Shown piece by piece: positions 1,203-39,858 of a stretch of 48,578 nt of DNA (positions are counted from its first letter, which is position 1; every line of letters begins with the position of its first letter). The translations under genes were made by a program, and so were the position numbers. The DNA lies in NCBI GenBank assembly GCA_002317215.1, contig DCJD01000027.1, positions 1 to 48,578 on the forward strand, read 5' to 3'. Source of the DNA: Bacillales bacterium UBA1709. Its GTDB lineage: Bacteria > Bacillota_I > Bacilli_A > RFN20 > UBA1709. The notes beneath the pieces are model-generated. The model was not told the DNA's origin, made no database searches, and saw only the letters and a program-made list of their open reading frames with translations.

Positions 1203-2087
1203 ATGGGAAGAACTGATAATTTAGTATTATTTGTGGATAGTGATTGTGATATCACATTAAAACAAGCAAATAAGTTAGGTGTTAATTTAATAATTATGCC
1301 ATATACAATAGATGGCAAAGAGATTAAACCATATATTGATTATGAAGATTTTAATTCTAAAGAATATTATGGTTTATTAAGAGATGGTGTTATGCCAAAA
1401 ACTGGTGCATTATCTCCTATTGATTATGTAAAGTATTTTGAACCATTCTTTAAAGAAGGAAAAGATATCTTATATGTCCATTTTAGTAGTGCAATGAGTG
1501 GGACATTTAATTCTATGCATATCGCATATGAACAATTATTAGATTCTTATCCAGATAGAAAATTATATGAGATTGATACAAAAGGAATTACTATTAATTC
1601 ATACGGTTTAGCAATGGAGTTAATTGATAAATATAATAACGGAGATAGCATTGAAGAGCTTCTTGAGTTTGGCAATAAAGAAAATGATAAATGGGCAACA
1701 TATTTTTATGTTGAAAGTTTAGATTTCTTTAGAAGAAGTGGACGTGTTAAGTCTTTATCTGCTTTTATGGGAAATATCATTGGTATTAAACCAATTATCT
1801 ATTTTGATAATGATGGTTTAATGAATCCATATACTAAAGTAAGAGGTATAATGGCAGCTAACAATAAACTTGTTGATTTTATGGAAGAGATTGGAGATAA
1901 TATCAAAGATCATAAGGTTATTATTGGTCATACAGATAGTATTGATAACGTTAATTTATTAAAAGAAAAGATTATAGAAAGATTTGGAGATAGTTTAGAT
2001 ATTGAGATTGTTGATATCAACCCTACTATTGGATGTCATTGTGGTCCTGGAGGAGTTGGTGTTTGTTTCCATGCTAAACATAGATAA
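1203..2087 (+). CDS. degV: DegV/FakB-family fatty-acid-binding protein
   Basis: DSDCD N-terminal motif, SSAMSGTFNS, RSGR, IKPII and GCHCGPG; SD AGAGGT; TATAAT at 1172-1177. Confidence 0.92.
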   Translation: MGRTDNLVLFVDSDCDITLKQANKLGVNLIIMPYTIDGKEIKPYIDYEDFNSKEYYGLLRDGVMPKTGALSPIDYVKYFEPFFKEGKDILYVHFSSAMSGTFNSMHIAYEQLLDSYPDRKLYEIDTKGITINSYGLAMELIDKYNNGDSIEELLEFGNKENDKWATYFYVESLDFFRRSGRVKSLSAFMGNIIGIKPIIYFDNDGLMNPYTKVRGIMAANNKLVDFMEEIGDNIKDHKVIIGHTDSIDNVNLLKEKIIERFGDSLDIEIVDINPTIGCHCGPGGVGVCFHAKHR

Positions 2088-2089
2088 TT

Positions 2090-3205
2090 ATGGTTGAGAT
2101 TAAAGAAGTAGTAAGTAAGAAAGATATAAGGAAGTTTATTAATTTTCCATTAGATTTATATGATGGGAATAAGTTTTTTGTTCCACCTTTATATATTGAT
2201 GAATTAAAGATGTTTAAAAAGAATTATGTTTACAATGATCAATGTGAACATAAATGTTTTTTAGCATATAAAGATAATAAGGTAGTCGGAAGAATTCAAG
2301 TAATTTTACAATATGCATCTAATGAAAAATGGAAACAAAAAAGAGTAAGATTTACTAGATTTGATAGTATAGATGATCAAGAAGTAGCAAATGCTTTATT
2401 TGATAAAGCTAAAGAATATGCTAAATCAAAAGGAATGAATGAAATTGTAGGTCCTTTAGGATTTAGTGATTTAGAAAGAGAAGGATTACTAATTGAAGGT
2501 TTTAATGAATTATCTACTTTTGAAGAACAATATAACTATGAATATTATCCTTTATTAATTGAGAATTATGGATTTGAAAAAGAAGTAGACTATGTTGAAA
2601 GAGAATTAAGAAAGCCATTAGTAAAAGATGAAAGAATGAAAAGATTATCGAATAGAATGCTAGAAAGATTTAATCTTCATTATGGTAAAGCTAATAGTTC
2701 TAGAGATTTCTTGAGAAAATATGGCGATAAAATATGTGAAATAATAGATAAGACATATGTTGATATATATGGTACTGTTCCTTTTACTAATAGAATGAAG
2801 AAATTAATGATTGATAATTTTAAACTAATTATTAATCTAAAATATGTCGCAGTTATATTAGATGAAAATGATAATATGGTTTGTTTTGGTATATGTTTAC
2901 CAAGTATTGCAAAGGCAGTTCAAAAATCAAAAGGCAGACTAACTATTCCTTGTATTATTAGAATCTTAAAAGCAATTAGGAAACCAGAAGTTATTGATTT
3001 ATGTTTAATTGGTGTATTACCAGAATATGCCTTAAGAGGAATTAGTTCATCAATAATTAGTAATGTTATGGATATGTTAGAAAATGGATTAGAACACGCT
3101 GAAACTAATTTAAATCTAGTAACTAATCAAGCAATAATCTCTCAATGGAAAGTATTTGATAATAGAGTTCATAAATATAGAAGAGTCTATGTAAAAAAGA
3201 TATAA
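2090..3205 (+). CDS. YghO-like double-GNAT acyltransferase (family that includes bacterial ceramide-synthase-like proteins)
   Basis: FINFPLDLY...FVPPL, VVGRI, GPLGFSDLEREGLLIEGF and YNYEYY motifs; starts 2 nt after the degV stop. Confidence 0.7.
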   Translation: MVEIKEVVSKKDIRKFINFPLDLYDGNKFFVPPLYIDELKMFKKNYVYNDQCEHKCFLAYKDNKVVGRIQVILQYASNEKWKQKRVRFTRFDSIDDQEVANALFDKAKEYAKSKGMNEIVGPLGFSDLEREGLLIEGFNELSTFEEQYNYEYYPLLIENYGFEKEVDYVERELRKPLVKDERMKRLSNRMLERFNLHYGKANSSRDFLRKYGDKICEIIDKTYVDIYGTVPFTNRMKKLMIDNFKLIINLKYVAVILDENDNMVCFGICLPSIAKAVQKSKGRLTIPCIIRILKAIRKPEVIDLCLIGVLPEYALRGISSSIISNVMDMLENGLEHAETNLNLVTNQAIISQWKVFDNRVHKYRRVYVKKI

Positions 3206-3222
3206 TTTATTTGGTGATTAAA

Positions 3223-3681
3223 ATGAATAAATTTATGGAACTTGCAATTAATGAAGCAAGAGTTGGTATTAGAAACGGGCATGGTGGTCCATTTGGATGT
3301 GTTGTAGTTAAAGATAATCAAGTCATATCTAAAGGACACAATCAAGTATTAAAAAATCATGATTCAACATGTCATGGCGAGATAGATGCTATTAGAAAAG
3401 CAGAACAAATTCTTCAAACTCATGACTTAAAAGGTTGTGTTATCTATACCACTGGTGAACCATGTGCAATGTGTTTAGCAGCATGTAAATGGGCTAATAT
3501 TGAACATGTATATTATGGATGTAGTATTGAAGATAACTCTATTATTGGTTTTAGAGATGAAGAAATGGATAATATGTTTGGTGGCAGAAACAATCTAAAA
3601 GGATATTTAGAACAAATAGATCATAAAGAATGTTTAGAATTGTTTAATGAATATAAATCCATTAAACATATAATTTATTAA
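3223..3681 (+). CDS. guaD: Zn-dependent nucleoside/guanine deaminase (CDA fold)
   Basis: GGPFG, HGE and EPCAMC motifs. The ATG at 3223 follows SD GGTGA, so it is preferred over the TTG at 3211. Confidence 0.75.
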   Translation: MNKFMELAINEARVGIRNGHGGPFGCVVVKDNQVISKGHNQVLKNHDSTCHGEIDAIRKAEQILQTHDLKGCVIYTTGEPCAMCLAACKWANIEHVYYGCSIEDNSIIGFRDEEMDNMFGGRNNLKGYLEQIDHKECLELFNEYKSIKHIIY

Positions 3682-3693
3682 CATATTTAAACT

Positions 3694-3720
3694 AACCCTA
3701 GATTAATCTAGGGTTTTATT
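3694..3720. terminator. Rho-independent terminator (perfect palindrome)
   Basis: AACCCTAGATTAATCTAGGGTT followed by TTATT. Confidence 0.85.
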
Positions 3721-3750
3721 TATAAGCATATAAATTATGTTAATAAATTA

Positions 3751-3759
3751 TGCTATAAT
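3751..3759 (+). promoter_or_regulatory. Extended -10 promoter 7 nt before the dapL ATG; leaderless-type
   Basis: TGcTATAAT-atggcgt-ATG with no SD. Confidence 0.65.
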
Positions 3760-3766
3760 ATGGCGT

Positions 3767-4918
3767 ATGAAAATTAATAAAAATTTATATAGTTTAGAAA
3801 ATCCAAATAGTTTCTATACTGCAACATCAAAGATTAGAGAATATAAAGAAAAACATCCATCTAATAAAGTTTTATCACTTGGTATTGGAGATGTTTCTTT
3901 TCCAATTGCAAAATATGTTAAAAAGAAAATGATAGAAGCAGTTAAAAGAGAAGCTAGTAAAGAATATGTTGGATACGGGAATTATTATGGATTATATGAA
4001 TTAAGAAAAGCTATTAGAGATAATGAATATCAAGATTTTGATATTGAAGAGATATATGTAAGTGATGGAACTAAGACAGATAGCGGATCTATTTTAGAAA
4101 TGTTTGATAAGGATGTTAGTATTGCGATACCAGATCCAACATATCCAATATATATTAATTCTTGTCTTTCTTTATCTAAGAATTATGAATTAATAGATAG
4201 CGATGATAGTTTTGTTCCACTTATTCCAAATAAACATTATGATGTTATTTATTTATGCAGTCCTAATAATCCTAGTGGATTATCTTATACATATGAGCAA
4301 TTAGAAAGATGGGTTAAGTATGCTATTAAGGAGAAAGCAATTATTATCTATGATAATGTTTATAATTGTTTTATTAGTAATGGTATTAAATCAATATATG
4401 AGATTAAAGATGCTAAAAGATGTGCTATTGAGTTAAGAAGTTTTTCTAAAACTGCTAGTTTTACAGGGATTAGATGTTCTTATTATGTAATACCAAATGA
4501 ACTAGAAAAAGATATTAATAAATATTGGAGATATCGTACTATTTCTAGATTTAATGGAGCTAGTTATATTGCACAAGTTGGAGCGCTTGCATCATTTAAT
4601 CATAAAGCTAAAAAAGAGATTAATAAAAATATACAAGTATATAAAGATAATGCTTTATATTTATTAAATGAATTTAAGAAATTAGGATATGAAGTTATTG
4701 GTGGAGTAGACGCACCTTATCTATGGATTAAGATTAAAAATGGTTTAAGTAGTTGGGAACTCTTTGATTTATTTTTAAATAAGTTAGAAGTGGTTATTGT
4801 TCCAGGTATTATATTTGGTAATAAGGGAGATAAGTATTTTAGAGTCAGTAGTTTAGGTAAAACAAAAGATATTAAAGAAGCAATGGGAAGAATTAGAAGA
4901 TATGAAGAAAGTTTATAA
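3767..4918 (+). CDS. dapL: LL-diaminopimelate aminotransferase-like PLP enzyme (class I/II)
   Basis: SLGIGDVSFP, SDGTKTD, CSPNNPSG, and ELRSFSKTASFTGIRC with the PLP lysine; start reassigned from 3737 to the ATG at 3767. Confidence 0.8.
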   Translation: MKINKNLYSLENPNSFYTATSKIREYKEKHPSNKVLSLGIGDVSFPIAKYVKKKMIEAVKREASKEYVGYGNYYGLYELRKAIRDNEYQDFDIEEIYVSDGTKTDSGSILEMFDKDVSIAIPDPTYPIYINSCLSLSKNYELIDSDDSFVPLIPNKHYDVIYLCSPNNPSGLSYTYEQLERWVKYAIKEKAIIIYDNVYNCFISNGIKSIYEIKDAKRCAIELRSFSKTASFTGIRCSYYVIPNELEKDINKYWRYRTISRFNGASYIAQVGALASFNHKAKKEINKNIQVYKDNALYLLNEFKKLGYEVIGGVDAPYLWIKIKNGLSSWELFDLFLNKLEVVIVPGIIFGNKGDKYFRVSSLGKTKDIKEAMGRIRRYEESL

Positions 4919-25897: not shown

Positions 25898-27874
25898 ATG
25901 TTTAAGACTATTAAAAAGAATAAAATAATCTCAATTATTGTTTATTCAATAGATATTTTAGTGATTGGATTGTTTATAGCTTTTATGTACCCAATATTAA
26001 AGGATAGTATTTATGCTATTACTATTTTTGGCATTGTTGTTTTAATGATTCCTTTATGTCTAAACATTACTCAAGTTGCCTCTTTTGATAAAGCTTTAAG
26101 AAAATATTATTTAACAATTGGAAACACTATTGGTGCTGATATTGCTGAAGCATATAAGTTTGGTGAGATTGGACTAGCAGCCTTTAATGAAGATAAGATC
26201 TTTATATGGACTAGTGGATTATTCTCCGAAAGAAAAATTAATATTTTAGGAGAGAGTATTATTGGAAAATTCCCACAACTTGGTGGGTTAATGAGTGAAG
26301 ATAATCCTGAGAATAAATTAACTACTCATGTTTATATTAATAAAAGAAATTATGAAGTTGTATTAGTCAGCGAACTTGATCTATTTATCTTTAAAGATGT
26401 TACAAATTATGATTCTCTTGCTAAAAAGAGCACCGATGAACAACCAATTTTATGTTCAATATTAATTGATGATTTTGATAGTATCGAAGATATTATTAAT
26501 GATGCAGATTACAGTAATGTAGTAAAAGAGATTGATGATGTTGTTAATGGTTTTGCTAAAGATCACAATTTCTTCATTTATAAACCAAAAGATGATGTTT
26601 ATCAATTAATTGGATTAGAGAAAGATTATAACGAGATTAAAGAACAAAACTTTGATATATTAGAAAAGATTTCTAAAATTCATAATAAAGAAACCACAAT
26701 CACTGCTTCAATTGGCATTGGTAGGGGAATATGTGATTATAATAAACTACTTGAATTATCTAAAGAAGCCTTAAACGTTGCTGAATCAAGAGGTGGTAAC
26801 CAAGTTGTTACTAATACTTATGAGAAAAATATGTTTTTCTTTGGTGGCCAAGGTGTTGAAAAGGTTCAAAAGACTAATACTGTTAAGTTAAGAATCATGG
26901 GAAGATCATTTATATCCCATGTTCAATCTGCTTCTGAACTATTCTTAATACCACATGTTGAAGCAGATTTTGATGCTATCGGTTCTTGCATTGGTTTATA
27001 TCAATTTGCTAAAAGATTAGGTAAAAAAGCTTATATTATTTGTGATGAAAAACAAATAGAATTAAAAACTAGATTAATGCTAAATGATTTATTTGATGAT
27101 GAAATATTATTATCTCAACAAAAGGCATTAAATCAATTAAACGAACAAACTTTAGTTATAGTTTGTGATGTTTCTAATCCAAAGATAGTTACAGCACCAA
27201 AGATTGTTGAGCAAGCAAAGAAGATAGCTGTTATTGATCATCATAGAGAATCAGAATATAACATTGATAATCCTTTGTTTGTCTTAAGGGATATTAATGC
27301 AAGTAGCACTTGTGAAATTGTTTCGTTATTGATGTTTGAAATTGGTGGAAATACTGTTGTTCCAAAAGAAGTTTCAACTTTTGTTCTTGCTGGTATTATT
27401 CTTGATACACATAATTTAACTGTTAAAACTACATCAGCTACTTTTAAAGCTTGTATGTTCTTAGAGGAAAATCATGCTGACGTTGCCTTAGCCAATTCAT
27501 ATATGAAAGATGAATATGAAGAATATGAATTAAAAGCAAAAGTATTATCTAATATTGAATCTCCAATGTATGGTATTGTAGTTTCATCAGCACCTGAAGA
27601 TGAAATATTAGAACGCGCAAGTCTTGCTAAGATTGCAATGGAAGCTATTAATATTAAAGGAATTAAAGCTGCTTTTATTTTAGGTTATATTGATAAAAAG
27701 GTTGTTGGTATTAGTGCTAGAAGTGATGGCAATATTAATACCCAATTGATAATGGAAAAACTAGGTGGTGGAGGACATCATTCAAGTAGTGCTTGTCAAA
27801 TAGAAAACACAACTATTGAAGATGCTAAAAAAGAATTAATCGGAGTTATTAAACTCTATAATAATGAGTTTTAG
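25898..27874 (+). CDS. gdpP: c-di-AMP phosphodiesterase (2 TM, degenerate GGDEF, DHH, DHHA1)
   Basis: AESRGGNQVV, HVEADFDAIGS, VIDHHR, GIILDT, SARS and GGGGH. Confidence 0.9.
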   Translation: MFKTIKKNKIISIIVYSIDILVIGLFIAFMYPILKDSIYAITIFGIVVLMIPLCLNITQVASFDKALRKYYLTIGNTIGADIAEAYKFGEIGLAAFNEDKIFIWTSGLFSERKINILGESIIGKFPQLGGLMSEDNPENKLTTHVYINKRNYEVVLVSELDLFIFKDVTNYDSLAKKSTDEQPILCSILIDDFDSIEDIINDADYSNVVKEIDDVVNGFAKDHNFFIYKPKDDVYQLIGLEKDYNEIKEQNFDILEKISKIHNKETTITASIGIGRGICDYNKLLELSKEALNVAESRGGNQVVTNTYEKNMFFFGGQGVEKVQKTNTVKLRIMGRSFISHVQSASELFLIPHVEADFDAIGSCIGLYQFAKRLGKKAYIICDEKQIELKTRLMLNDLFDDEILLSQQKALNQLNEQTLVIVCDVSNPKIVTAPKIVEQAKKIAVIDHHRESEYNIDNPLFVLRDINASSTCEIVSLLMFEIGGNTVVPKEVSTFVLAGIILDTHNLTVKTTSATFKACMFLEENHADVALANSYMKDEYEEYELKAKVLSNIESPMYGIVVSSAPEDEILERASLAKIAMEAINIKGIKAAFILGYIDKKVVGISARSDGNINTQLIMEKLGGGGHHSSSACQIENTTIEDAKKELIGVIKLYNNEF

Positions 27875-27885
27875 AGGTGTAGATC

Positions 27886-28332
27886 ATGGAAGTTATTTTA
27901 TTAAGTGATGTTAAAAACGTTGGTAAGAAGGGTCAAATTGTAGATGTTTCAGATGGATATGCAATGAACTTCTTATATCCTAGAAAATTAGCAGTTGCTG
28001 CAACTACTAAAGGAAAAGAAATCAAAGAACAACAAGATAAAGAAGCTAAAGAACTTTATGAAGCAAACAAAGCTAAAGCCATTGAACTAAAGGCTCAAAT
28101 TGAATCTATTAGATTAGAATTTAAGGCTAAGTGTGGTAATGACGGTAGAATGTTTGGAGCAATTTCGTCAAAAGAAATTGTTGAGCAATTAAAAACAAAA
28201 TATAGTATTGTTGTTGATAAGAAAAAGATTGTTGGTGAATCTAGTTGTAAGACTTTTGGAACCAGTAAAATTAAAATTGAATTATTTAAAGATGTTATTG
28301 CAACAATTAATGTTGATGTAAAAGAAATGTAG
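27886..28332 (+). CDS. rplI: 50S ribosomal protein L9
   Basis: [16 protein letters not shown]...[13 protein letters not shown] and [10 protein letters not shown]. Confidence 0.97.
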
Positions 28333-28341
28333 GTGAATTTT

Positions 28342-29727
28342 ATGGCGTTAAATAGAGCTAATAGTTTGCAAGCCGAGAAAGCAATACTTGGAACAATGCT
28401 TGGTGATCCTAATAAGGTAAGCCATTGTGTTGCTATTTTAGTTGAAGAAGATTTTTATAATGAATCATATCGCAAGATATTTGCCATTATGCGCGATCTA
28501 TTCAATGCTAGACAAGCAGTAGATATTACCAGTGTCACAGATAAACTAAATGATTTAGGCATATTAGATGATGTTGGTGGAGTTGGTGGACTAGTTGAAC
28601 TAACAGAAACCGTTACAGTTGAAAATGTTTCTTATTATATTGATATTTTAAAAGACAAAACTAATCTTAGAAAATTAGCCGATTTTTTAGAAGAAACATA
28701 TACTAATTTTGATGGTAAATCCACTGATGACATTCATTCATATTTAAGTAGACTAGAAGAAGATATGCTAAAAATCACTAGATTTAGAAGTGTATCAGAT
28801 TTCCAAAAGACTAGTGATTTAGTTCAAACTTACGATGATATTTTAAGAAATAAAGATAAAGTTTTACCTGTTATAGATACTGGATATGCTTACCTTAACA
28901 AATTATTAAATGGTGGTTGGGGAGATGGAACATTAAATGTTTTAGCTGCTAGAACTGGTATTGGTAAAACTGCTTTAGCTTTAAACTTTGCTATTAATGC
29001 CGCAAGTAAGAAATGTCCTGTAGCTTTTTTCTCAAGTGAAATGAGTTCACATGAATTAATGTGTCGTATGATCTCTATTTGCAGCTCGATTGATTCAAGT
29101 AAAGTTCAAACCTATAATTTCAAAACAAATGAAGATTTAATGCGTTTACAACACGCTTTAACTAAGATTAAAGATTTACCTATTTATATTGATGATACAG
29201 CCAATATTAGACTTGTTGATTTAGTATCTAAAGCTAGAAAACTAAAAAGTGAAAATCCAGCCCTATCATTAATCATTGTTGACTACTTACAAATAGTTAT
29301 TCCTGATTCAGATAAAAACGATTCACAAGCTTTAAAGATTGGTAAGATTGCTACCGCCTTAAAAGGATTAGCAAGAGATTTAAACATCCCAATAATTGCT
29401 TTAGCTCAATTAAATCGTGCTGCCGACAAGAATGCCGAGGGAGTTAAAGGTAAACCAAGTAAAGTTCAAAAGAGACCACAATTATCAGACTTAAAGGATT
29501 CTAGCCAAATTGAACAAGATGCTGACTTAGTATTATTCCTATATAAAGAAGACTATTATAGTGGACAAGATGGAAGTAGTATTCCAGATAATGAAGAAGT
29601 TGAATTAATAATTGGAAAAAATAGACACGGTCAAAAGACCACTGTTCATTTTGTATCCACACCAAAATTCTATCAATACAAAGAAAGATTAAATCAAGAA
29701 CAAGATAAACCAGATATAGGAGACTAA
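28342..29727 (+). CDS. dnaB: Replicative DNA helicase
   Basis: AARTGIGKT, FSSEM, IIVDYLQ, ALAQLNR and DLKDSSQIEQDAD; SD AGGTGA supports the ATG at 28342. Confidence 0.95.
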   Translation: MALNRANSLQAEKAILGTMLGDPNKVSHCVAILVEEDFYNESYRKIFAIMRDLFNARQAVDITSVTDKLNDLGILDDVGGVGGLVELTETVTVENVSYYIDILKDKTNLRKLADFLEETYTNFDGKSTDDIHSYLSRLEEDMLKITRFRSVSDFQKTSDLVQTYDDILRNKDKVLPVIDTGYAYLNKLLNGGWGDGTLNVLAARTGIGKTALALNFAINAASKKCPVAFFSSEMSSHELMCRMISICSSIDSSKVQTYNFKTNEDLMRLQHALTKIKDLPIYIDDTANIRLVDLVSKARKLKSENPALSLIIVDYLQIVIPDSDKNDSQALKIGKIATALKGLARDLNIPIIALAQLNRAADKNAEGVKGKPSKVQKRPQLSDLKDSSQIEQDADLVLFLYKEDYYSGQDGSSIPDNEEVELIIGKNRHGQKTTVHFVSTPKFYQYKERLNQEQDKPDIGD

Positions 29728-29728
29728 G

Positions 29729-30478
29729 ATGAAGTATTATTTTTTGCAATCTGGTAGTGCTGGAAATAGTTGCCTTATAGTAACGAAAGATTCAAAAATC
29801 CTTATTGATGTTGGTTTAACATATTCTTGCTTAAAAGATAAATTGAAAATATTAGGTTATTCAATAACGGATATTGATGCTTTTTTGATTACTCATGAAC
29901 ATGGAGATCATATTAAAGGGATTCAATATATTCCTTATTCAAAAGTTTATGCTACAAAAGAAACACTTTCTGGTAATGAGTTTCATGATATAGAACCATA
30001 TAAGATGTTTGAAATAAATAATACTCATATTGTTCCTTTAACCATTAGTCACGATATTAGAAATGGGGTAGGTTATGTTATTGATGATGAAAATCAAAGA
30101 TTAGTTTATATGACTGATACAGGCAAAGTATTAGTTAAGAATAGAGCATTTATGAAAGATGCTGATCATTATTGCATCGAATCAAATCACAATTTAGAGA
30201 TGTTAATGAATTGTCCTTATCCTGATTTTCTTAAAATTAGAATATCAAGTGATAAAGGACATTTATCTAATGAACAATCTGGTAAACTAATGGGTAAATT
30301 AATTGGTAAAAACACCAAAACAATAACATTAGCCCATATATCTGAGAAAACTAATACACCTGATTTAGCCTTAAAAGATTTTAAAGAACAATTGGATTTA
30401 GCAAATATAGATTATTCAAATATACGAATTAAAGCCGCTGATAGATATGAAATAACAATAGGAGAAGATAATGATTAA
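29729..30478 (+). CDS. yycJ: YycJ/WalJ metallo-beta-lactamase-fold hydrolase
   Basis: SGSAGNS, THEHGDH, ESNH, GHLSN and LAHIS. Confidence 0.88.
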   Translation: MKYYFLQSGSAGNSCLIVTKDSKILIDVGLTYSCLKDKLKILGYSITDIDAFLITHEHGDHIKGIQYIPYSKVYATKETLSGNEFHDIEPYKMFEINNTHIVPLTISHDIRNGVGYVIDDENQRLVYMTDTGKVLVKNRAFMKDADHYCIESNHNLEMLMNCPYPDFLKIRISSDKGHLSNEQSGKLMGKLIGKNTKTITLAHISEKTNTPDLALKDFKEQLDLANIDYSNIRIKAADRYEITIGEDND

Positions 30479-31652
30479 AGGATTTAAAGTCTTATCATTA
30501 GTTTTTATGGTTTTCTCATTAACCTCAATATCTCAAAAGAAAGATGTTGCAATTAATTGCAACACTATTTCTGATGAAGAAATAACTCTAACTAATCAAG
30601 TAAACTTAACTAGTTCAATGAATGATTTTTATAATGAAGCTATTAAAGGTGTTGTTAAAGTATCAAATTATGCAAAGACTACTACTCAAGGTGTTTCTAG
30701 TTATGTAAAACAATCAATTGGGTCTGGTTTTTTCTATGATGAAGATAGCTCATATTATTATCTATTAACAAATCATCATGTTATTGAATCATATAATATG
30801 GTTTCAATAACTATCCATTCAAATCAAGAGATAAAAAACGTTAAAGTTATTGGATATGATGATAAACAAGATGTTGGAGTTTTAAGAGTAAATAAGTCAG
30901 AGTTAAACTCAGCAATTAAAGTATTAGAATTATTAAAAGATAATAATTTTATTAATCCAACAATCGGAGATGATGTCGTAGCACTTGGTTGTCCTGGAGG
31001 CCAAGGATTTAGTGGTACTTTAAGTAAAGGTATTGTAAGTGGAGTTAATCGTATTGTTAGTGAATCAAATAATAATATTTATAATCAAGATCATGCGATT
31101 CAAACGGATTGCGCAATTAATCCTGGGAATAGTGGTGGACCACTTTTAAATATGAATATGGAAGTTATTGGTGTTAATACAATGAAGATTTCTTCAGATA
31201 GCAGTATTAGAGAAGAAGCTCTTAATTTTGCTTTGCCTATTCATGATATGTATAAAACATCAATGCTTATTAGAAAACAATTTAATGATTTTGGTCAAAA
31301 CAGTGTTATTCAATTTAATAATAGATTATCTATTTCTTCTTCTAAGCAATTTAAATCTATTCGAGATATGAGTATTAAAGAAAGAGATGTCTATGGAGTT
31401 ATAAATAAAAACCAAGGTGTAGTATGTTTAAATGATGATTCTACACTTAATGTTAAAAGAGGAAGTTTAATTGTTAGTATTAATGGTGTTGCTATTAATA
31501 ACGTATGTGAACTAAGAAGAGAACTACTAGATATTTATTATCAAGGAAACTTAACTAATAAGATTGTTGTACAAGTTTATAAAAACGTTAATGGAAATCT
31601 TAATGATTCTATATCTAATATTTCTATTAGTCCTAAGATTATTAATGTGTAG
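30471..31652 (+). CDS. htrA: HtrA-like S1C serine protease with an intact triad and a PDZ-like C terminus
   Basis: TNHHV (His), QDVGV (Asp) and NPGNSGGP (Ser); N-terminal signal/anchor. Confidence 0.88.
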   Translation: MIKGFKVLSLVFMVFSLTSISQKKDVAINCNTISDEEITLTNQVNLTSSMNDFYNEAIKGVVKVSNYAKTTTQGVSSYVKQSIGSGFFYDEDSSYYYLLTNHHVIESYNMVSITIHSNQEIKNVKVIGYDDKQDVGVLRVNKSELNSAIKVLELLKDNNFINPTIGDDVVALGCPGGQGFSGTLSKGIVSGVNRIVSESNNNIYNQDHAIQTDCAINPGNSGGPLLNMNMEVIGVNTMKISSDSSIREEALNFALPIHDMYKTSMLIRKQFNDFGQNSVIQFNNRLSISSSKQFKSIRDMSIKERDVYGVINKNQGVVCLNDDSTLNVKRGSLIVSINGVAINNVCELRRELLDIYYQGNLTNKIVVQVYKNVNGNLNDSISNISISPKIINV

Positions 31653-31664
31653 GAAGGAGAATGT

Positions 31665-32918
31665 ATGAGAAAGATTTTAAAAGCAGTTTTTGTATCAATA
31701 TTCTGTTTGATATTTATGAGTGGTTGTACTTCTTTACTTCCTGTTTTTACCACGGTCAATGAAACTAACAATAACAAGAGTGTTTGTCAATATGTTACAA
31801 AACAAACCACTTCAAATACTAATGAATCTAATACCACATTACTTTCCTCTTCAATTTCTAGTTTTCTAGATGCTAAAAATTCTAGTGTTCGTGTAATGGC
31901 TTGTTATAGTGTTAATGATAACGAATACGAAATGAGTAGTAGTGGATTTATTGTAGATGGTGAATATAATTCATCAACCCATAAATATGTCTACTATATT
32001 GTAACTAGTGCAAGTGGCATATTTTATAGATATGTAACTAATCCAAGCGATTCAATTGATATTGAAAATGATGTTAATATTGTTAGAAGTGGAACTTTTG
32101 AAATGTATATGGAAGATGGTAATGCATATACTGGAGAGATGGTTGGTTATTTTGATGCTTATGATGTTGCTATTTTCAAATTTCAGTCTGATAAAGAATA
32201 TGATGTATTAGAGTTGTCTAATGATGAAGTAAGTATTGGAGATACAGTTTATGCTTATGGAACTCCAGTAGATGGATACAATTTATTAAATACTTTAATA
32301 AAAGGAACAGTATCTGGTACCAATCGTTTATCAGATTTATATTTTAGTGAAACTATTAATAGCAAAACATATAGCGCTGTTATTTCTTCTTATCCAACCT
32401 TCCAATTTGATGGATCTATTAATCTTGGAATGGAAGGCGGGCCAATTATTAATGCAAACGGACAAGTAGTTGGAATGATTGGATATAGATATGGTACAAA
32501 TGCTGGTACTTATATGTATGAATCGTTGTCTTTCGGATTATCAAGTGCCAATCTAAAACCTATCATTGAATCAATTATCTCAACTGGTAGTTTTACGAAA
32601 CCATTACTTGGTATTACTATTACTGATATTTATAATGTTTCAGAGAAAGAAAACTATGAATGGATTGAAGATAATCAAATTTATAGTGGAGTTGTTATTT
32701 TAAAAGATGGAATTAGCGATAACTCCCCAGCTTATAACGCTTCAATTAGTGATAATAGTGTTTTAATTAAGTTAGTTAGTGATGGTAAAGAATATAATAT
32801 TTCTAATTTATCTTGTTTATATAGTGCTTTAGTTCAAATTAATCCTTCTAATCCTTTATCAGTAACTTATATTGATAGCAATAATCAAACACATACAAAG
32901 GTGGTTAATTTACAATGA
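31665..32918 (+). CDS. HtrA-like lipoprotein pseudoprotease (His and Ser missing)
   Basis: Lipobox-like MSGC; SSGFIV, YDVAI, YAYGTP, KGTVSG and FQFDGSINLG fit the trypsin-like fold; VTSASGI replaces TNxHV and GMEGGP replaces GNSGGP. Confidence 0.8.
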   Translation: MRKILKAVFVSIFCLIFMSGCTSLLPVFTTVNETNNNKSVCQYVTKQTTSNTNESNTTLLSSSISSFLDAKNSSVRVMACYSVNDNEYEMSSSGFIVDGEYNSSTHKYVYYIVTSASGIFYRYVTNPSDSIDIENDVNIVRSGTFEMYMEDGNAYTGEMVGYFDAYDVAIFKFQSDKEYDVLELSNDEVSIGDTVYAYGTPVDGYNLLNTLIKGTVSGTNRLSDLYFSETINSKTYSAVISSYPTFQFDGSINLGMEGGPIINANGQVVGMIGYRYGTNAGTYMYESLSFGLSSANLKPIIESIISTGSFTKPLLGITITDIYNVSEKENYEWIEDNQIYSGVVILKDGISDNSPAYNASISDNSVLIKLVSDGKEYNISNLSCLYSALVQINPSNPLSVTYIDSNNQTHTKVVNLQ

Positions 32919-33382
32919 AACTTATCTGTGTTGGAAAATTAAAAGAAGCATTTAATAGAGACGCTTTTAATGAATATGCTAAAAGACTATCTAAATATAC
33001 TAAATTAGAAGTTATCGAACTTAATGACGAAAGCATTAATGACGATTCAGTAGCATCTATTAATAAAGCAGTTGCAATAGAAAGTGAAAGAATTTTATCT
33101 AAAATAAATGATAAAGATTATGTTATTTTACTTGCGATAAAAGGAAATATGCTTGATAGTGAAGGATTATCTAATAAAATTAATGAGGTAATGAATCAAA
33201 GCAAACCTATTGCTTTTGTAATAGGTGGTTCTTATGGTGTTGATGATAGTGTTATAAAAAGAGCTAATTATCAATTATCCTTTTCAAAATTAACATTTCC
33301 TCATCAATTATTTAGAGTTATGCTATTGGAACAAATTTATCGTAGTTTCAAGATTATTAAGAAGGAGAAATATCATAAATGA
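32915..33382 (+). CDS. rlmH: 23S rRNA pseudouridine-1915 N3-methyltransferase
   Basis: MKLICVGKLKE, FVIGGSYG, SKLTFPHQLFRVMLLEQIYRSF and YHK. Confidence 0.96.
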   Translation: MKLICVGKLKEAFNRDAFNEYAKRLSKYTKLEVIELNDESINDDSVASINKAVAIESERILSKINDKDYVILLAIKGNMLDSEGLSNKINEVMNQSKPIAFVIGGSYGVDDSVIKRANYQLSFSKLTFPHQLFRVMLLEQIYRSFKIIKKEKYHK

Positions 33383-34605
33383 TTAAAGTTTATCATAAGG
33401 ATGTTTGCTGTGGTGGATGTTGTTTTGAAAAACACCATGAAGAAGAACGATCCAGATTATTTAAAATTATTCAAATCATAGTTGGAGCAATTCTAATTGT
33501 TTTTTCTTTGATTTCTGAAGAGAAAGATTTTCTTCCTTTTTCTAGCCTATATTTATTTATAATTGCATATATTCTTGTTGGTTATGAAGTTATTATTAAT
33601 TCATTTAAAAATATTCTAAAGAGAAAGTTTTTTGATGAATCAACATTAATGGTAATAGCTACAATATGTGCTTTTTTTGCAAAAGAATATGAAGAAGCCG
33701 TTATTGTAATGGAACTATTCCAAATAGGAGAATTATTAGAAGATATTGCTGTTGATAAAACACATGAATCAGTAGAACATTTACTAATTATGGATGATGT
33801 AATTGTTCATAAACTAGATCGTTCAAATATTATAGATTTAGACATAACACATGTTAGTGTTGGAGATGTTATTTTAGTTAAGAAAGGTGAAAGAATTCCT
33901 TTAGATGGAACTATTGTTAAAGGTAAATCAAGATTAGATTTAATTAATTTGGTTGGTCATAACGAAGTAATTAATGGAAATATTGATACTGATGTATTAT
34001 CTGGGTCTATCAATTTAGAAAATGATTTATATATTAAAGTTAATAAAAATTATGATCATTCTACGGTTCATAGAATATTAGATTTAATTGAAGAAAAAAC
34101 TATATCTAAGACTAAATCAAAGAAATTTGTATCTAAATTTGCATCTATATATACACCAGTAGTTGTTTGTTGTGCAATTTTAGTAGTATTAATTCCTACG
34201 TTATTATTTAAACAAAATATAGATATTTGGTTATATAAAGCGTGCTTATTTTTAGTTGTATCATGTCCATGCGCAATTGTCATTTCAGTACCTCTTGCAT
34301 ATTTTATTGGAATTGCGATAACTTGTAAAAACGGGGTATTAATGAGCGGGACTAATTATCTTGAATTATTAGAAAATAATAACGTTAATAAAATCGATTC
34401 TTCAAGTTTGGTTAAGAAAAGAATCATCTATATTGTTTATGAAAACATCATTGCAGTTGTACTTATTAAAACAATCGCGATGATATGGGGCTTATTTGGT
34501 GATTTACCAATTTGGGTTGCTATATTAAGTGATACAGGAATATGTTTACTTTGTATTATTAATTGTTTAAGACTATTTTTATTAAAAATTAAGAAGGGAG
34601 AATAG
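33379..34605 (+). CDS. CadA/ZntA-type (P1B-2) heavy-metal ATPase derivative lacking the P and N domains
   Basis: FFDESTLMVIAT, GERIPLDG, FASIYTP, SCPC, ENI..K and SDTG are present; DKTGT, TGE, HP, TGD and GDGxND are absent; 408 aa. Confidence 0.85.
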   Translation: MIKVYHKDVCCGGCCFEKHHEEERSRLFKIIQIIVGAILIVFSLISEEKDFLPFSSLYLFIIAYILVGYEVIINSFKNILKRKFFDESTLMVIATICAFFAKEYEEAVIVMELFQIGELLEDIAVDKTHESVEHLLIMDDVIVHKLDRSNIIDLDITHVSVGDVILVKKGERIPLDGTIVKGKSRLDLINLVGHNEVINGNIDTDVLSGSINLENDLYIKVNKNYDHSTVHRILDLIEEKTISKTKSKKFVSKFASIYTPVVVCCAILVVLIPTLLFKQNIDIWLYKACLFLVVSCPCAIVISVPLAYFIGIAITCKNGVLMSGTNYLELLENNNVNKIDSSSLVKKRIIYIVYENIIAVVLIKTIAMIWGLFGDLPIWVAILSDTGICLLCIINCLRLFLLKIKKGE

Positions 34606-34606
34606 T

Positions 34607-36058
34607 ATGATTATTGATTTTAAAGAAAAGAAAAACTTATTTAAGGTAATTGAACTAGGTTTAGGCATTGTATTTCTATTATGTTTCTTATTACCATTTA
34701 TTAATGTTGCGATAGATTCAGAAAGTTCCTTAAAAATCAGTGGTTTTCAGTTGATTAAAGGAATGAACAATGATTTATATTTACTTGATGTAAATGAATT
34801 TAGTTCTAACGTATATTTGTATTTTCCTCTATTTTTAACGTTGGTAGTTGCCGTCTTAGCGATATTTGATTTTAAGAATTTCGAGATTATTAAAAAAATC
34901 GTATGTGTTTTAGTAAGTTGTTTTAATGCTGTTGTAATTTCAAATATTAAAAATAGATTTTATATTGTTAATAAGGTTTCATATACTGATCAATCAAGTA
35001 TATCTTATGGATATGGATACTCAATATGTTTATGTATTGTGTTAGGAATATTTTTAATGAGTGTTTATGACTTATTAGTTAATGGTAAAAAGCTTTCAGA
35101 AGAGAAACGAATTATTGGATGTTTAGAAAACAATAAGTTATTAAAAATATCATTTGAGAGTTTATGTTATCTCATAATTACATTTGGATTATTCTTCGCT
35201 ATTGTTAGAATCGGCAATAATTTAGGATACATTGATATGAGTTTAATTAGATTATTATCAAAATATGATGTACCTAAAAATGCTTTAGGCTTTATTAAAA
35301 CAAAAGTATACAAACCAACAATTATATTCTTTGTTTCAGTAATCGTTTCAATTGCATTACGTGCTCTTACTTATTTATATAATAAAAAGATATTTAAAAT
35401 CTCTAATGTTATTATCTTAGCCATAGCATTTTCATTTATTGTTTCTCTTGAGGACAATGTATCAATAATTTGCATTCAAACAGGTGAAAATATATATTCA
35501 GCAGGCTTCAATGGCTCACTAACGATTTATGGATCATTAGTATTTACTAGCTGTTTATTATTACTTCTTTTTAATATTCTTGAATATTATAAAGAGTATG
35601 GCTTAAGAGATGCATCAATTCTTGGATTAACTTGTATTGGAGCTTTAGTTCTAACAAATATGTATCAATTAAGCGTTTATACATATAATGTTTATACTTC
35701 AGACGATAAATATAATGAAGTGGCCTATTCTTTATGGAAAATATTAAAATCTAAAGATATTTTAGGAAGTGGAGTTAAACTACAATACTTCTATATCTTA
35801 ATATTCTTAGAATTAGCTGGGTTAGTTTGTTCATTTGTCCCTTTTAAAGAGATTAAGATTAAATATTTAGTTTTATTCTTGATCTATGTTGTTTCTTTTG
35901 TTCTATTTGTAATGACATACTTAAAAGGATATAACTGTTTAACTGGTGATAATGCTCAATATTGTAGAATAGAATGTTATGAATATGGATATATTCATGG
36001 GTTATTTCTACTAATTTGTGCTTCTTCATACCTATATCTTGGATACGTTGAAGATTAA
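34607..36058 (+). CDS. Hypothetical polytopic membrane protein with three roughly 4-TM repeats
   Basis: About 12 hydrophobic segments in three similarly spaced modules; starts 1 nt after the previous stop. Confidence 0.65.
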   Translation: MIIDFKEKKNLFKVIELGLGIVFLLCFLLPFINVAIDSESSLKISGFQLIKGMNNDLYLLDVNEFSSNVYLYFPLFLTLVVAVLAIFDFKNFEIIKKIVCVLVSCFNAVVISNIKNRFYIVNKVSYTDQSSISYGYGYSICLCIVLGIFLMSVYDLLVNGKKLSEEKRIIGCLENNKLLKISFESLCYLIITFGLFFAIVRIGNNLGYIDMSLIRLLSKYDVPKNALGFIKTKVYKPTIIFFVSVIVSIALRALTYLYNKKIFKISNVIILAIAFSFIVSLEDNVSIICIQTGENIYSAGFNGSLTIYGSLVFTSCLLLLLFNILEYYKEYGLRDASILGLTCIGALVLTNMYQLSVYTYNVYTSDDKYNEVAYSLWKILKSKDILGSGVKLQYFYILIFLELAGLVCSFVPFKEIKIKYLVLFLIYVVSFVLFVMTYLKGYNCLTGDNAQYCRIECYEYGYIHGLFLLICASSYLYLGYVED

Positions 36059-38955: not shown

Positions 38956-39858
38956 ATGTTTTATATTTTATCAAAACTTAACCCAATTGCTTTAAAACTT
39001 GGCGATTTGGAAATTAGATGGTATGCAATATGTATATTAACTGGAGCATTATGCACTTATCTTTTAGCTAGATATTATTTTAAAAAGGGTGGATATGATC
39101 CAAATATTGCTGATGATATTATTGTAATTGCTTTGCCTGCTGGAATTATTGGGGCTAGAATTTGGTGGTGCATATGTGATTCAGGAAGTCCTTGGAGAAA
39201 CGGAGATTTCTGGGGCTTTATTACTGAATTTGCAAATGGTGGTCTTGCTATTCAAGGTGGGGTTATTTTAGGAGCAGCAGCTGGTATTGGAGTTGTTTTA
39301 ACTAAATATAAAAATGTTAATATTTTCTATGCCATGGATGCGGTTATTCCAAATATTCTTATTGCACAAGCAATTGGTAGATGGGGTAATTTTTTCAATC
39401 AAGAAGTATACGGTGCCTGTGTTGATTATGAAGCATTAAATTTCTTGCCTAATTTTGTTCAAGAACAAATGCGTGGAGATATATTAAATGGAGTTAATAT
39501 TGGGGAGTGGAATATTTATTCAGCTTCAATTGAATGTTTAACTACTCAAGCTGCTCAACCATTATTCTTATATGAATCATTATTAAATATCTTAGGATTA
39601 GTTATTGTATCTATTGTTATTAGAAAATTCTGGACTAAGGGCAGAAAAAATGGTGATTTATCAGCTTTATATTTAGTATGGTATGGTGTTGTTAGATTTT
39701 TATTAGAACCTTTAAGAAATCAAGAATTCATTATGAATGCTTGGGGACATATGCCAGTTAGTCAAATCACATCCATCTTATTTATTATTGGTGGAATATT
39801 ATTTATGGTTGCCTTAAGAGCAATCCCTATTATAAAAAATAAAACTAAACATGATTAA
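38956..39858 (+). CDS. lgt: Prolipoprotein diacylglyceryl transferase
   Basis: EIRWYA, GAR, GGLAIQGG, QAIGRWGNFFNQE, PLFLYES and RFLLEPLR. Confidence 0.95.
   Translation: MFYILSKLNPIALKLGDLEIRWYAICILTGALCTYLLARYYFKKGGYDPNIADDIIVIALPAGIIGARIWWCICDSGSPWRNGDFWGFITEFANGGLAIQGGVILGAAAGIGVVLTKYKNVNIFYAMDAVIPNILIAQAIGRWGNFFNQEVYGACVDYEALNFLPNFVQEQMRGDILNGVNIGEWNIYSASIECLTTQAAQPLFLYESLLNILGLVIVSIVIRKFWTKGRKNGDLSALYLVWYGVVRFLLEPLRNQEFIMNAWGHMPVSQITSILFIIGGILFMVALRAIPIIKNKTKHD

What the first reader, a model, noticed from the sequence alone, without database searches (positions are those of the whole stretch)
30471..32918. Tandem HtrA pair: one active protease and one catalytically dead lipoprotein
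Seen: copy 1 has TNHHV (30768-) and GNSGG (31125-). Copy 2 keeps the fold motifs and the Asp but has VTSASGI (32001-) in place of the His motif and GMEGGP (32427-) in place of the Ser motif, so both His and Ser are lost. It has also gained a lipobox. The ORF is full length and coupled to rlmH. Known: Bacilli carry a single htrA between walJ and rlmH; HtrAs are oligomers with a separable chaperone activity. Inference: the dead copy may be a membrane-tethered chaperone, substrate adaptor or regulatory subunit in hetero-oligomers.
Basis: partly seen in the sequence, partly recalled or inferred. Interest (0 to 1): 0.65.

Follow-up and report, generated by a model that had tools for sequence, protein, structure and literature searches.

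The report
Conserved live/dead HtrA protease pair
A tiny uncultured Bacilli genome keeps two adjacent HtrA genes, one working protease and one lipid-anchored copy that lost its catalytic residues long ago yet is strongly conserved, most likely as a non-catalytic partner subunit; a sister family keeps the same pair with the live and dead roles swapped.

Summary
Copy 1 (30471-31652) has His-Asp-Ser. Copy 2 (31665-32918) has Ser-Asp-Glu at the same aligned positions, a lipobox, and a 4-nt ATGA overlap with rlmH.

This is not strain-specific decay.
- The dead copy forms one clade (99/98 support). It always sits as walJ - live HtrA - dead lipoprotein - rlmH: 10 of 12 genomes of the family, two further families and metagenome contigs.
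- The core group keeps Ser/Asp invariant and Glu nearly so (Gln twice). Deeper members carry G-D-F, I-R-R, I-H-R or L-H-Q, so no shared alternative triad exists.
- dN/dS is 0.067, against 0.074 for the live partner.
- The AF2 model (pLDDT 78.5) matches DegP protease+PDZ1.
- Divergence is complementary. The live copy keeps the ancestral protease domain. The dead copy keeps the canonical PDZ loop and the lipid anchor.

New here: sister family f2 has the reverse pair at the same locus (dead secreted copy upstream, live lipoprotein downstream). Three genomes from two other families have walJ abutting rlmH with no HtrA.

Best reading (about 0.55): an obligate mixed HtrA oligomer with a non-catalytic anchoring and sensing subunit. 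This is a new variant of the known HtrA pseudoprotease theme (MamO/MamE, DEG7). No interaction evidence was obtainable.

The parts
29729..30478 (+). walJ/yycJ-like metallo-beta-lactamase-fold gene. It is the upstream anchor of the conserved locus and overlaps the copy 1 start by 8 nt.
   Evidence: Pfam Lactamase_B_2/Lactamase_B; overlap read; synteny
30471..31652 (+). HtrA copy 1: active-type S1C protease (393 aa) with an N-terminal hydrophobic signal or anchor and no lipobox. Triad: His103 (30777-30779), Asp134 (30870-30872), Ser221 (31131-31133). Its PDZ carboxylate-binding loop is diverged.
   Evidence: Pfam Trypsin_2 93.9 bits; H-D-S in the catalytic columns; clade A 99/100; PDZ loop comparison
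31653..31664 (+). 12-nt spacer with the ribosome-binding site GGAAGGAG ahead of the copy 2 ATG. The two genes are in the same frame, separated by TAG plus four codons.
   Evidence: Sequence read. Spacers of -1 to 16 nt in 16 of 17 pairs
31665..32918 (+). HtrA copy 2: catalytically dead HtrA-fold lipoprotein (417 aa). After the signal peptide comes a disordered Ser/Thr/Asn linker (about residues 22-63), then a trypsin-fold domain and a PDZ-like domain.
   Evidence: Pfam Trypsin_2 65.9 bits; AF2 pLDDT 78.5, pTM 0.77; Foldseek to DegP E 2e-22, TMt 0.85; clade D 99/98; dN/dS 0.067
31716..31727 (+). Lipobox M18-S19-G20-C21. Cys21 is invariant in the family.
   Evidence: Lipobox pattern in 16 of 17 dead copies, the 17th near-canonical; C21 invariant; Lgt and LspA in the genome
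32001..32021 (+). VTSASGI in place of the TNxHV His motif. S117 (32013-32015) occupies the catalytic His column.
   Evidence: S117 invariant in 15 family members
32163..32165 (+). D167, the retained catalytic-Asp equivalent.
   Evidence: invariant in alignment A2. It is replaced by R or H in the deeper members L015, L016, P0042 and P0046.
32427..32444 (+). GMEGGP in place of GNSGGP. E257 (32433-32435) occupies the nucleophile Ser column.
   Evidence: It is Gln in P0002 and P0031, and F, R or Q in deeper members.
32586..32915 (+). PDZ-like C-terminal domain. It carries the canonical carboxylate-binding loop K-P-L-L-G-I-T (about 32598-32618).
   Evidence: AF2 secondary structure and Foldseek alignment over about 360 columns to DegP protease+PDZ1. 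The loop is shared with the group S active HtrAs and altered in the live tandem partners. Pfam PDZ models do not reach significance on this copy.
32915..33382 (+). rlmH (SPOUT methyltransferase), translationally coupled to copy 2 by an ATGA overlap. It is the downstream anchor of the locus.
   Evidence: Pfam SPOUT_MTase 184 bits
38983..39810 (+). lgt (prolipoprotein diacylglyceryl transferase), needed to lipidate copy 2. Context only, not part of the operon.
   Evidence: PF01790 190.5 bits

Best explanation
Copy 2 is a long-established, selectively maintained pseudoprotease of the HtrA family. It has the trypsin fold plus a PDZ domain and is lipid-anchored on the outer face of the membrane. 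It has no catalytic His or Ser.

It is the fixed operon partner of the adjacent live HtrA (copy 1). The most likely mechanism is that the two assemble into mixed HtrA trimers or higher oligomers.
- The dead subunit would supply the membrane anchor, a canonical PDZ peptide-binding loop and the conserved L3-loop arginine (R221).
- The live subunit would supply the active site, switched on in trans as in the L3-to-LD activation relay known for DegS and DegP.

Shown: loss of the triad, conservation, purifying selection, fold, lipobox, strict pairing, complementary divergence, and a role-swapped pair in a sister family.

Inferred: physical association, anchoring and trans-activation.
For: (1) The dead clade is monophyletic (99/98) and so are its live partners (99/100). 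The arrangement walJ-live-dead-rlmH is seen in every locus with enough flank. One search's upstream gene is cut at the contig end and has no Pfam record.

(2) dN/dS is 0.067 for the dead copy, 0.074 for the live partner and 0.029 for rlmH. Branch lengths of dead copies are no longer than those of live ones.

(3) The family is tiny and sharply bounded. About 16 representatives score above 220 bits among 1.84 billion; below that, scores from 189 bits down are mostly generic HtrAs, with a few dead-clade members (P0042, P0043, P0046) among them.

(4) The AF2 model matches DegP/DegQ protease+PDZ1.

(5) Divergence is complementary. Protease-domain identity to the group S active HtrAs (unpaired paralogs of the sister family) is 36.5% for live copies and 26.8% for dead ones. 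PDZ identity is 26.3% for dead copies and 18.9% for live ones. The PDZ loop [KR]PxxG[IV][ST] is kept in the dead copies and altered in the live ones.

(6) Lipoboxes go by position: downstream copies 21 of 22, upstream copies 2 of 17.

(7) In sister family f2, 7 of 7 genomes checked carry walJ - dead secreted copy - live lipoprotein - rlmH.

(8) Three genomes from families f4 and f7 have walJ abutting rlmH with no HtrA. The locus is therefore a pair or nothing.

(9) Spacers of -1 to 16 nt in 16 of 17 pairs fit co-translated subunits.

(10) Precedents: the pseudoprotease MamO activates MamE-dependent proteolysis (PMC4794232), and DEG7 trimerises through a degenerated duplicated protease domain (PMC3194040).
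Against: - No direct evidence of association exists. The tools give no multimer prediction or model coordinates, and no sequencing run holding the locus was found.
- Adjacent, co-inherited genes can work independently.
- The near-invariance of S117, D167, M256 and E257 in the core group is more than a passive scaffold needs. It hints at a specific ligand or chemistry at the old active site.
- Pfam PDZ models do not detect the PDZ of either copy in this genome, so 'canonical PDZ' rests on the loop motif and the AF2 fold.
- Phylogeny cannot tell whether the f1 and f2 pairs share one duplication (AU tests p 0.15-0.38).
Confidence: 0.55

Rival explanations
1. Copy 2 is an independent non-catalytic lipoprotein: a surface holdase or chaperone, or a peptide or protein binder. 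It reuses the HtrA cleft and PDZ and does not form mixed oligomers with copy 1. Adjacency would reflect only the tandem duplication and shared regulation.
For: Protease-dead HtrA variants keep chaperone function (review PMC12826053; established for DegP S210A). There is strong purifying selection on the whole protein. The old active-site residues S117, D167 and E257 and the PDZ loop are conserved, as expected for a binding site.
Against: It does not explain why the locus always holds exactly one live and one dead copy in either order. It does not explain why both are missing together in other families, nor the complementary loss of PDZ features in the live partner.
Confidence: 0.28
2. Copy 2 is still an enzyme. 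It would use a rearranged Ser117-Glu257-Asp167 constellation (Ser nucleophile, Glu base, reminiscent of the sedolisin Ser-Glu-Asp triad), or it would bind a metal through the carboxylates.
For: S117 and D167 are invariant and E257 nearly so across core members that are only 29-48% identical to the window copy. By simple side-chain reach (my inference, not computed) a Ser at the His position and a Glu at the Ser position could hydrogen-bond. MamO shows that a dead HtrA-type fold can gain metal binding.
Against: Two natural core members have Gln for Glu (P0002, P0031). Deeper members of the same clade, in the same synteny, carry G-D-F, I-R-R, I-H-R and L-H-Q. No His is invariant. The oxyanion hole is built for a nucleophile at the Ser position. 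Sedolisins have a subtilisin fold, not this one.
Confidence: 0.07
3. Copy 2 is a decaying duplicate: a strain-specific pseudogene in the making.
For: Loss of two catalytic residues. Scores on the NCBIfam HtrA models lie far below their cut-offs.
Against: The frame is open and full length in every genome. dN/dS is 0.067. The clade spans at least three GTDB families with conserved substitutions. The gene is retained in genomes of 0.8-1.4 Mb.
Confidence: 0.02

Closest known systems
MamO / MamE of magnetotactic bacteria (HtrA-family pseudoprotease plus active HtrA protease; PMC4794232)
   Same: A trypsin-fold HtrA-family protein with a degenerate triad is retained under selection alongside an active HtrA paralog. 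MamO promotes MamE-dependent proteolysis without catalysis. That paper also reports pseudoproteases arising more than once.
   Different: MamO is an integral membrane protein fused to a TauE-like transporter domain. It binds metal through a surface di-His motif. Copy 2 is a lipoprotein with a PDZ domain and no invariant His. It lies at the housekeeping walJ-rlmH locus of reduced Bacilli, and sequence similarity is weak (NCBIfam MamO E 0.0067).
Plant DEG7 (two HtrA units in one chain, the second protease domain degenerated; PMC3194040)
   Same: Tandem duplication of an HtrA unit followed by loss of catalysis in one copy. The degenerated domain specialises in oligomerisation.
   Different: DEG7 is one polypeptide of eukaryotes. 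Here there are two genes, separated by a stop codon and 12 nt, and the dead unit carries its own signal peptide and lipid anchor.
Lipoprotein partners of envelope PDZ-proteases: mycobacterial HtrA-LppZ (PMC6538288) and CtpA-LbcA (PMC8764530)
   Same: An extracytoplasmic protease works with a lipoprotein partner that is needed for its function.
   Different: LppZ and LbcA are not homologs of their proteases. Here the presumed partner is a dead paralog.
B. subtilis HtrC/YycK and other gram-positive HtrAs next to rlmH (PMC12826053)
   Same: Same locus (walJ/yycJ - htrA - rlmH) and the same protease+PDZ architecture. Copy 1 is the functional equivalent.
   Different: Those organisms have one active gene at the locus with an N-terminal transmembrane anchor. 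There is no dead paralog and no lipobox.

Membership tests
HtrA/DegP family (MEROPS S1C) as an active serine endopeptidase | Catalytic triad His-Asp-Ser in the TNxHV, D and GNSGG motifs | tested here: not met
   Copy 2 has S117, D167 and E257 in these columns. Copy 1 has H-D-S.
HtrA/DegP family (MEROPS S1C) as an active serine endopeptidase | Score above the curated NCBIfam HtrA/Do cut-offs | tested here: not met
   Copy 2 scores 92-103 bits against cut-offs of 416-650. Copy 1 scores 143 bits against 416. Both are divergent.
HtrA fold family (homology, regardless of activity) | Chymotrypsin/trypsin-fold protease domain | tested here: met
   Pfam Trypsin_2 65.9 bits against a cut-off of 27.6; Foldseek to DegP, DegQ and M. 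tuberculosis HtrA at E about 1e-22.
HtrA fold family (homology, regardless of activity) | At least one C-terminal PDZ domain | tested here: inconclusive
   The AF2 model aligns over protease+PDZ1 of DegP (TMt 0.85) and the loop KPLLGIT is present. Pfam PDZ models give no hit on this copy. Relatives P0040 and P0041 do have Pfam PDZ hits on record.
Bacterial lipoprotein | N-terminal signal peptide with a lipobox Cys, and Lgt/LspA in the genome | tested here: met
   Lipobox pattern ending at C21; C21 invariant; Lgt 190.5 bits and LspA 124.8 bits. Lipidation itself was not tested.
HtrA-type pseudoprotease partner (MamO-like in function) | Degenerate active site conserved across orthologs, plus a co-occurring active HtrA paralog | tested here: met
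   17 of 17 dead-clade members lack His and Ser. An active HtrA (H-D-S) lies next to all 12 genome-derived members, and a Trypsin-family gene lies upstream on the contigs of P0038 and P0040; P0041's upstream gene is cut, and P0042 and P0046 were not looked up.
HtrA-type pseudoprotease partner (MamO-like in function) | Stimulates proteolysis by the active partner without catalysis of its own | not testable with these tools
   Needs biochemistry or genetics.
HtrA-type pseudoprotease partner (MamO-like in function) | Surface di-histidine metal site (MamO-specific) | tested here: not met
   No His is among the invariant or near-invariant columns of alignment A2.
Sedolisin-like Ser-Glu-Asp peptidase (S53) | Subtilisin-like fold with a Ser-Glu-Asp triad | tested here: not met
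   The fold is trypsin-like. Glu is Gln in two members and F, R or Q in deeper ones.

The most novel reading that the evidence does not exclude
One ancient tandem duplication at the walJ-rlmH locus created an obligate two-subunit HtrA machine: a secreted upstream subunit and a lipoprotein downstream subunit. Only one subunit type needs an active site. Catalysis was then lost reciprocally: from the lipoprotein subunit in families f1, f5 and f6, and from the secreted subunit in family f2. This would be a natural swap experiment showing that the position of the catalytic centre in a mixed HtrA oligomer is interchangeable.
Probability: 0.35. Interest if true: 0.7.

Novelty: new variant of a known kind. 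Interest (0 to 1): 0.55.

Why it matters
HtrA proteases are treated as homo-oligomers, and gram-positive bacteria as mostly having one copy. Here a lineage with genomes of about 1 Mb, under heavy gene loss, keeps a live/dead HtrA pair as a unit. A sister family keeps the mirror-image pair.

If the two proteins form mixed oligomers, this would be a compact bacterial system for three questions. How does a pseudoenzyme subunit anchor, gate or target its active paralog? How is allosteric activation passed between non-identical HtrA protomers? How does subfunctionalisation split anchor, PDZ sensing and catalysis between duplicates?

It also flags an annotation problem. These proteins match only the generic Trypsin_2 model, so automated annotation is likely to label them serine proteases, although they cannot be conventional ones.

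Tried and rejected
- MAFFT-auto alignment put SASGIF opposite the GSGF strand motif instead of TNxHV. I rejected it in favour of the L-INS-i alignments and the AF2 secondary structure.
- Oscillospiraceae, Lentisphaerales and Planctomycetota loci returned by the pattern scan are ordinary active HtrAs or unrelated large trypsin-like proteins. They are not members of this family.
- Phylogeny could not decide between one duplication with reciprocal loss and two independent duplications. All four constrained topologies pass the AU test, p 0.15-0.38.
- Pfam PDZ models on the C-terminal pieces gave nothing significant for either copy of this genome.
- No public sequencing run holding the locus was listed, so expression could not be checked.
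- Earlier scan notes had nothing on this protein.
- I considered an AF2 run on a read-through fusion of the two in-frame genes as a stand-in for a heterodimer. I dropped it because the tool returns no coordinates, contacts or PAE. Any two HtrA protomers would probably dock, so neither outcome would discriminate.
Full report
**1. What is in the window**

The window comes from an 837-kb, 27% GC genome in 27 contigs, 93% complete. Public records label its relatives only as 'MAG: Bacilli bacterium' or 'uncultured Eubacteriales'.

Around the finding the + strand carries, in order: a gdpP-like DHH gene, rplI, dnaB, a walJ/yycJ-like MBL-fold gene (29729-30478), HtrA copy 1 (30471-31652), HtrA copy 2 (31665-32918), rlmH (32915-33382), and then a P-type-ATPase-like ORF.

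The genes are tightly packed:
- walJ overlaps copy 1 by 8 nt.
- Copy 1 and copy 2 are 12 nt apart, with GGAAGGAG before the second ATG.
- Copy 2 and rlmH overlap in ATGA.

**2.

Both proteins exceed the Pfam Trypsin_2 cut-off, at 93.9 and 65.9 bits. They align to each other at 32% identity, with GNSGGP opposite GMEGGP. Solved HtrA structures give the same pairing.

In two L-INS-i alignments of 33 and 54 relatives, the catalytic columns read H-D-S for copy 1 and S117-D167-E257 for copy 2. A MAFFT-auto alignment misplaced the His region. The AF2 model has strand 107-114 followed by a short helix at 116-119, which is the geometry expected around the catalytic His.

Copy 2 has a lipobox ending at Cys21. 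The genome encodes Lgt, inside this window at 38983-39810, and LspA.

**3. It is not decay**

*Occurrence.* A search of 61 related genomes found the dead copy in 10 of 12 genomes of the same GTDB family. The two misses are 72% and 84% complete. It was also found in two other families of the order. In every case it lies immediately downstream of a triad-intact HtrA and upstream of rlmH. Metagenome contigs carrying more distant members show the same order: walJ - live - dead - rlmH on L048, L049 and L050, and on the short contig L047 a cut upstream gene, then dead, then rlmH.

*Family size.* A profile search of 1.84 billion representative proteins gives about 16 representatives above 220 bits. 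Below that, scores from 189 bits down are mostly generic HtrAs, with a few dead-clade members (P0042, P0043, P0046) among them. The family is small and sharply bounded.

*Phylogeny.* On a 54-protein ML tree the dead copies are one clade (99/98) and their live partners another (99/100).

*Triad columns.*
- All 13 core members read S-D-E.
- Across 15 members (10 genome-derived, 5 metagenome proteins), S117, D167 and M256 are invariant, E257 is nearly so, and the lipobox Cys is invariant.
- Two metagenome members have Gln for Glu.
- Deeper members read G-D-F, I-R-R, I-H-R and L-H-Q.

So there is no shared alternative triad. The ancestor of the clade was most likely already non-catalytic.

*Selection.* For a pair of orthologous loci at 86% protein identity, Nei-Gojobori dN/dS values are:

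| Gene | dN/dS |
|---|---|
| Dead copy | 0.067 |
| C-terminal half of the live partner | 0.074 |
| rlmH | 0.029 |

dS is near 1, so the ratios are approximate. Terminal branches of dead copies are no longer than those of live copies.

**4. Fold**

AF2 run with the 15-sequence family alignment gives mean pLDDT 78.5 and pTM 0.77. Confidence is low only for the signal peptide, the Ser/Thr/Asn-rich linker (about residues 15-63) and two loops.

Foldseek against the PDB returns DegP, DegQ, DegS and mycobacterial HtrA. The best E-value is 2e-22, with about 360 aligned columns and a TM-score of 0.85 on the target length for a DegP protease+PDZ1 chain. The HtrA architecture is therefore intact.

Relative to active HtrAs there is a conserved insertion of about 20 residues between the His and Asp positions (F[YH]RY...). 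The L3 region after the invariant R221 is also longer.

**5. Complementary divergence**

I compared both members of the pair with active HtrA paralogs of the sister family that lie outside the walJ-rlmH locus (group S). Mean identities are:

| Domain | Live copies vs group S | Dead copies vs group S |
|---|---|---|
| Protease | 36.5% | 26.8% |
| PDZ | 18.9% | 26.3% |

- The PDZ carboxylate-binding loop [KR]-P-x-x-G-[IV]-[ST] is shared by the dead copies and group S. In the live partners it is altered, for example to S-S-L-G-x-A-Y with an extra residue.
- Lipoboxes follow gene position: 21 of 22 downstream copies have one, against 2 of 17 upstream copies.

Each duplicate has therefore kept a different part of the ancestral equipment. 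One kept catalysis. The other kept the anchor and the canonical PDZ loop. This is the pattern expected of subfunctionalised subunits that work together.

**6. The mirror-image pair (outside the original finding)**

Family f2 of the same order also has two HtrA genes between walJ and rlmH, but with the roles reversed.
- The upstream gene (323-345 aa) has a signal peptide and no lipobox. Its catalytic columns read -/D/Q, D/Q/R, F/G/I or N/G/I.
- The downstream gene (352-388 aa) has a lipobox and reads H-D-S.

This held in all 7 f2 genomes examined.

In three genomes of two further families (f4 and f7) the block gdpP-rplI-dnaB-walJ-rlmH is intact, walJ abuts rlmH, and no trypsin-like gene is detected in those genomes. 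In the genomes examined, the locus therefore holds a live/dead pair in one of two orientations, or nothing. I did not see a single HtrA there.

The tree leaves the five lineages (D, A, U and two W/S groups) as a polytomy inside a well-supported clade (95/96). AU tests reject neither positional orthology (U+A p 0.38; D+W+S p 0.15) nor lineage-specific duplication (A+D p 0.30; U+W+S p 0.28). The position-specific lipobox and PDZ-loop patterns favour one old duplication with reciprocal loss. That remains an inference.

**7. Mechanism**

The best-supported reading is an obligate mixed HtrA oligomer. HtrA trimers form through their protease domains. In DegS and DegP, activation passes from the PDZ and L3 loop of one protomer to the LD, L1 and L2 loops of its neighbour. 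This is established knowledge of the family, and structures such as 3MH6 and 3OTP are among the fold hits.

A dead protomer that keeps its lipid anchor, PDZ loop and L3 arginine could therefore tether a live protomer and switch it on in trans.

- Shown: everything in sections 2-6.
- Inferred: association, tethering and trans-activation.

I put this at about 0.55. An independently acting holdase or binding lipoprotein is about 0.28. Residual or new chemistry or metal binding at the conserved S-D-E site is about 0.07. Decay is about 0.02.

The strict conservation of S117, M256 and E257 in the core group is not explained by a purely structural role. It is the main loose end.

**8. Comparison with known systems**

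- The closest functional precedent is MamO/MamE. MamO is an HtrA-family pseudoprotease that activates MamE-dependent proteolysis and binds metal (PMC4794232).
- DEG7 of plants carries a duplicated, degenerated protease domain that mediates trimerisation (PMC3194040).
- Lipoprotein partners of envelope proteases are known (HtrA-LppZ, PMC6538288; CtpA-LbcA, PMC8764530), but they are not paralogs of the protease.
- A December 2025 review of gram-positive HtrAs describes mostly single genes, often next to rlmH. A term search of its text found no 'lipoprotein' or 'pseudo-', and its hits for 'inactive' concern engineered mutants or the DegS resting state, not natural paralogs (PMC12826053).

Copy 2 fails membership as an active S1C peptidase, because the triad and the NCBIfam cut-offs are not met. 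It is a clear homolog by fold. I class it as a new variant of a known kind: a new, narrowly distributed clade of HtrA pseudoproteases, lipid-anchored and fixed in a two-gene unit at a housekeeping locus.

**9. Verdict**

Interest is moderate (0.55). The concept has precedents. The conservation in minimal genomes, the complementary domain divergence and the role-swapped sister pair make this a good experimental system.

Noticed in passing
L053-L057, L067, L068 (genomes G045, G035, G050, G030, G019, G025, G012 of sister family f2): The same walJ-rlmH locus holds a reversed pair. The upstream secreted HtrA-like protein has lost all triad motifs. The downstream HtrA lipoprotein keeps an intact triad.
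   Followed up: yes
L069, L071, L072 (genomes G017, G014, G057; families f7 and f4): The block gdpP-rplI-dnaB-walJ-rlmH is intact and walJ directly abuts rlmH, with no HtrA gene. Most genomes of families f3, f4, f7 and f8 have no Trypsin_2 gene at all.
   Followed up: partly
window 33379-34605 (+): A 408-aa P-type-ATPase-like ORF with an N-terminal Cys-rich stretch and a CPC motif. It hits only the Pfam E1-E2_ATPase domain. The phosphorylation and nucleotide-binding (hydrolase) part seems to be missing, and the sequence runs straight into the C-terminal membrane helices. A 483-aa membrane protein with no Pfam hit follows (34607-36058).
   Followed up: no
G000:C6:5249-5665 (-) and G000:C14:49890-50366 (+) (loci L001, L003): This 837-kb genome encodes two more trypsin-fold proteins with intact TNxHV and GNSGG motifs and lipoboxes (380 and 472 aa). 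That makes four HtrA-like genes in a very small genome.
   Followed up: partly
window 31785-31787 and 31902-31904 (copy 2 residues C41 and C80): C80 is invariant and C41 nearly invariant in the dead family; the live partners have no Cys at the C80 position. They may form a disulfide pinning the N-terminal linker to the first strand. Distances could not be measured because no model coordinates were available.
   Followed up: no
window 30471-32918: Copy 1 and copy 2 are in the same reading frame, separated only by a TAG stop and four codons (GAA GGA GAA TGT). Other loci have different phases, so this is probably coincidence. It echoes the single-chain DEG7 arrangement.
   Followed up: partly
L041 (Lentisphaerales MAG) 1701-3833 and L043 (Planctomycetota MAG) 399-2342: Large trypsin-like proteins (647-710 aa) carry GQDGGP in place of GNSGGP (Ser to Asp). 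They are an unrelated set of probable pseudoproteases picked up by the pattern scan.
   Followed up: no
window 25898-30478: walJ is kept directly after gdpP-rplI-dnaB with no walRK, walH or walI genes at the locus. The cell-wall two-component system that normally precedes walJ in Bacilli is absent here.
   Followed up: no
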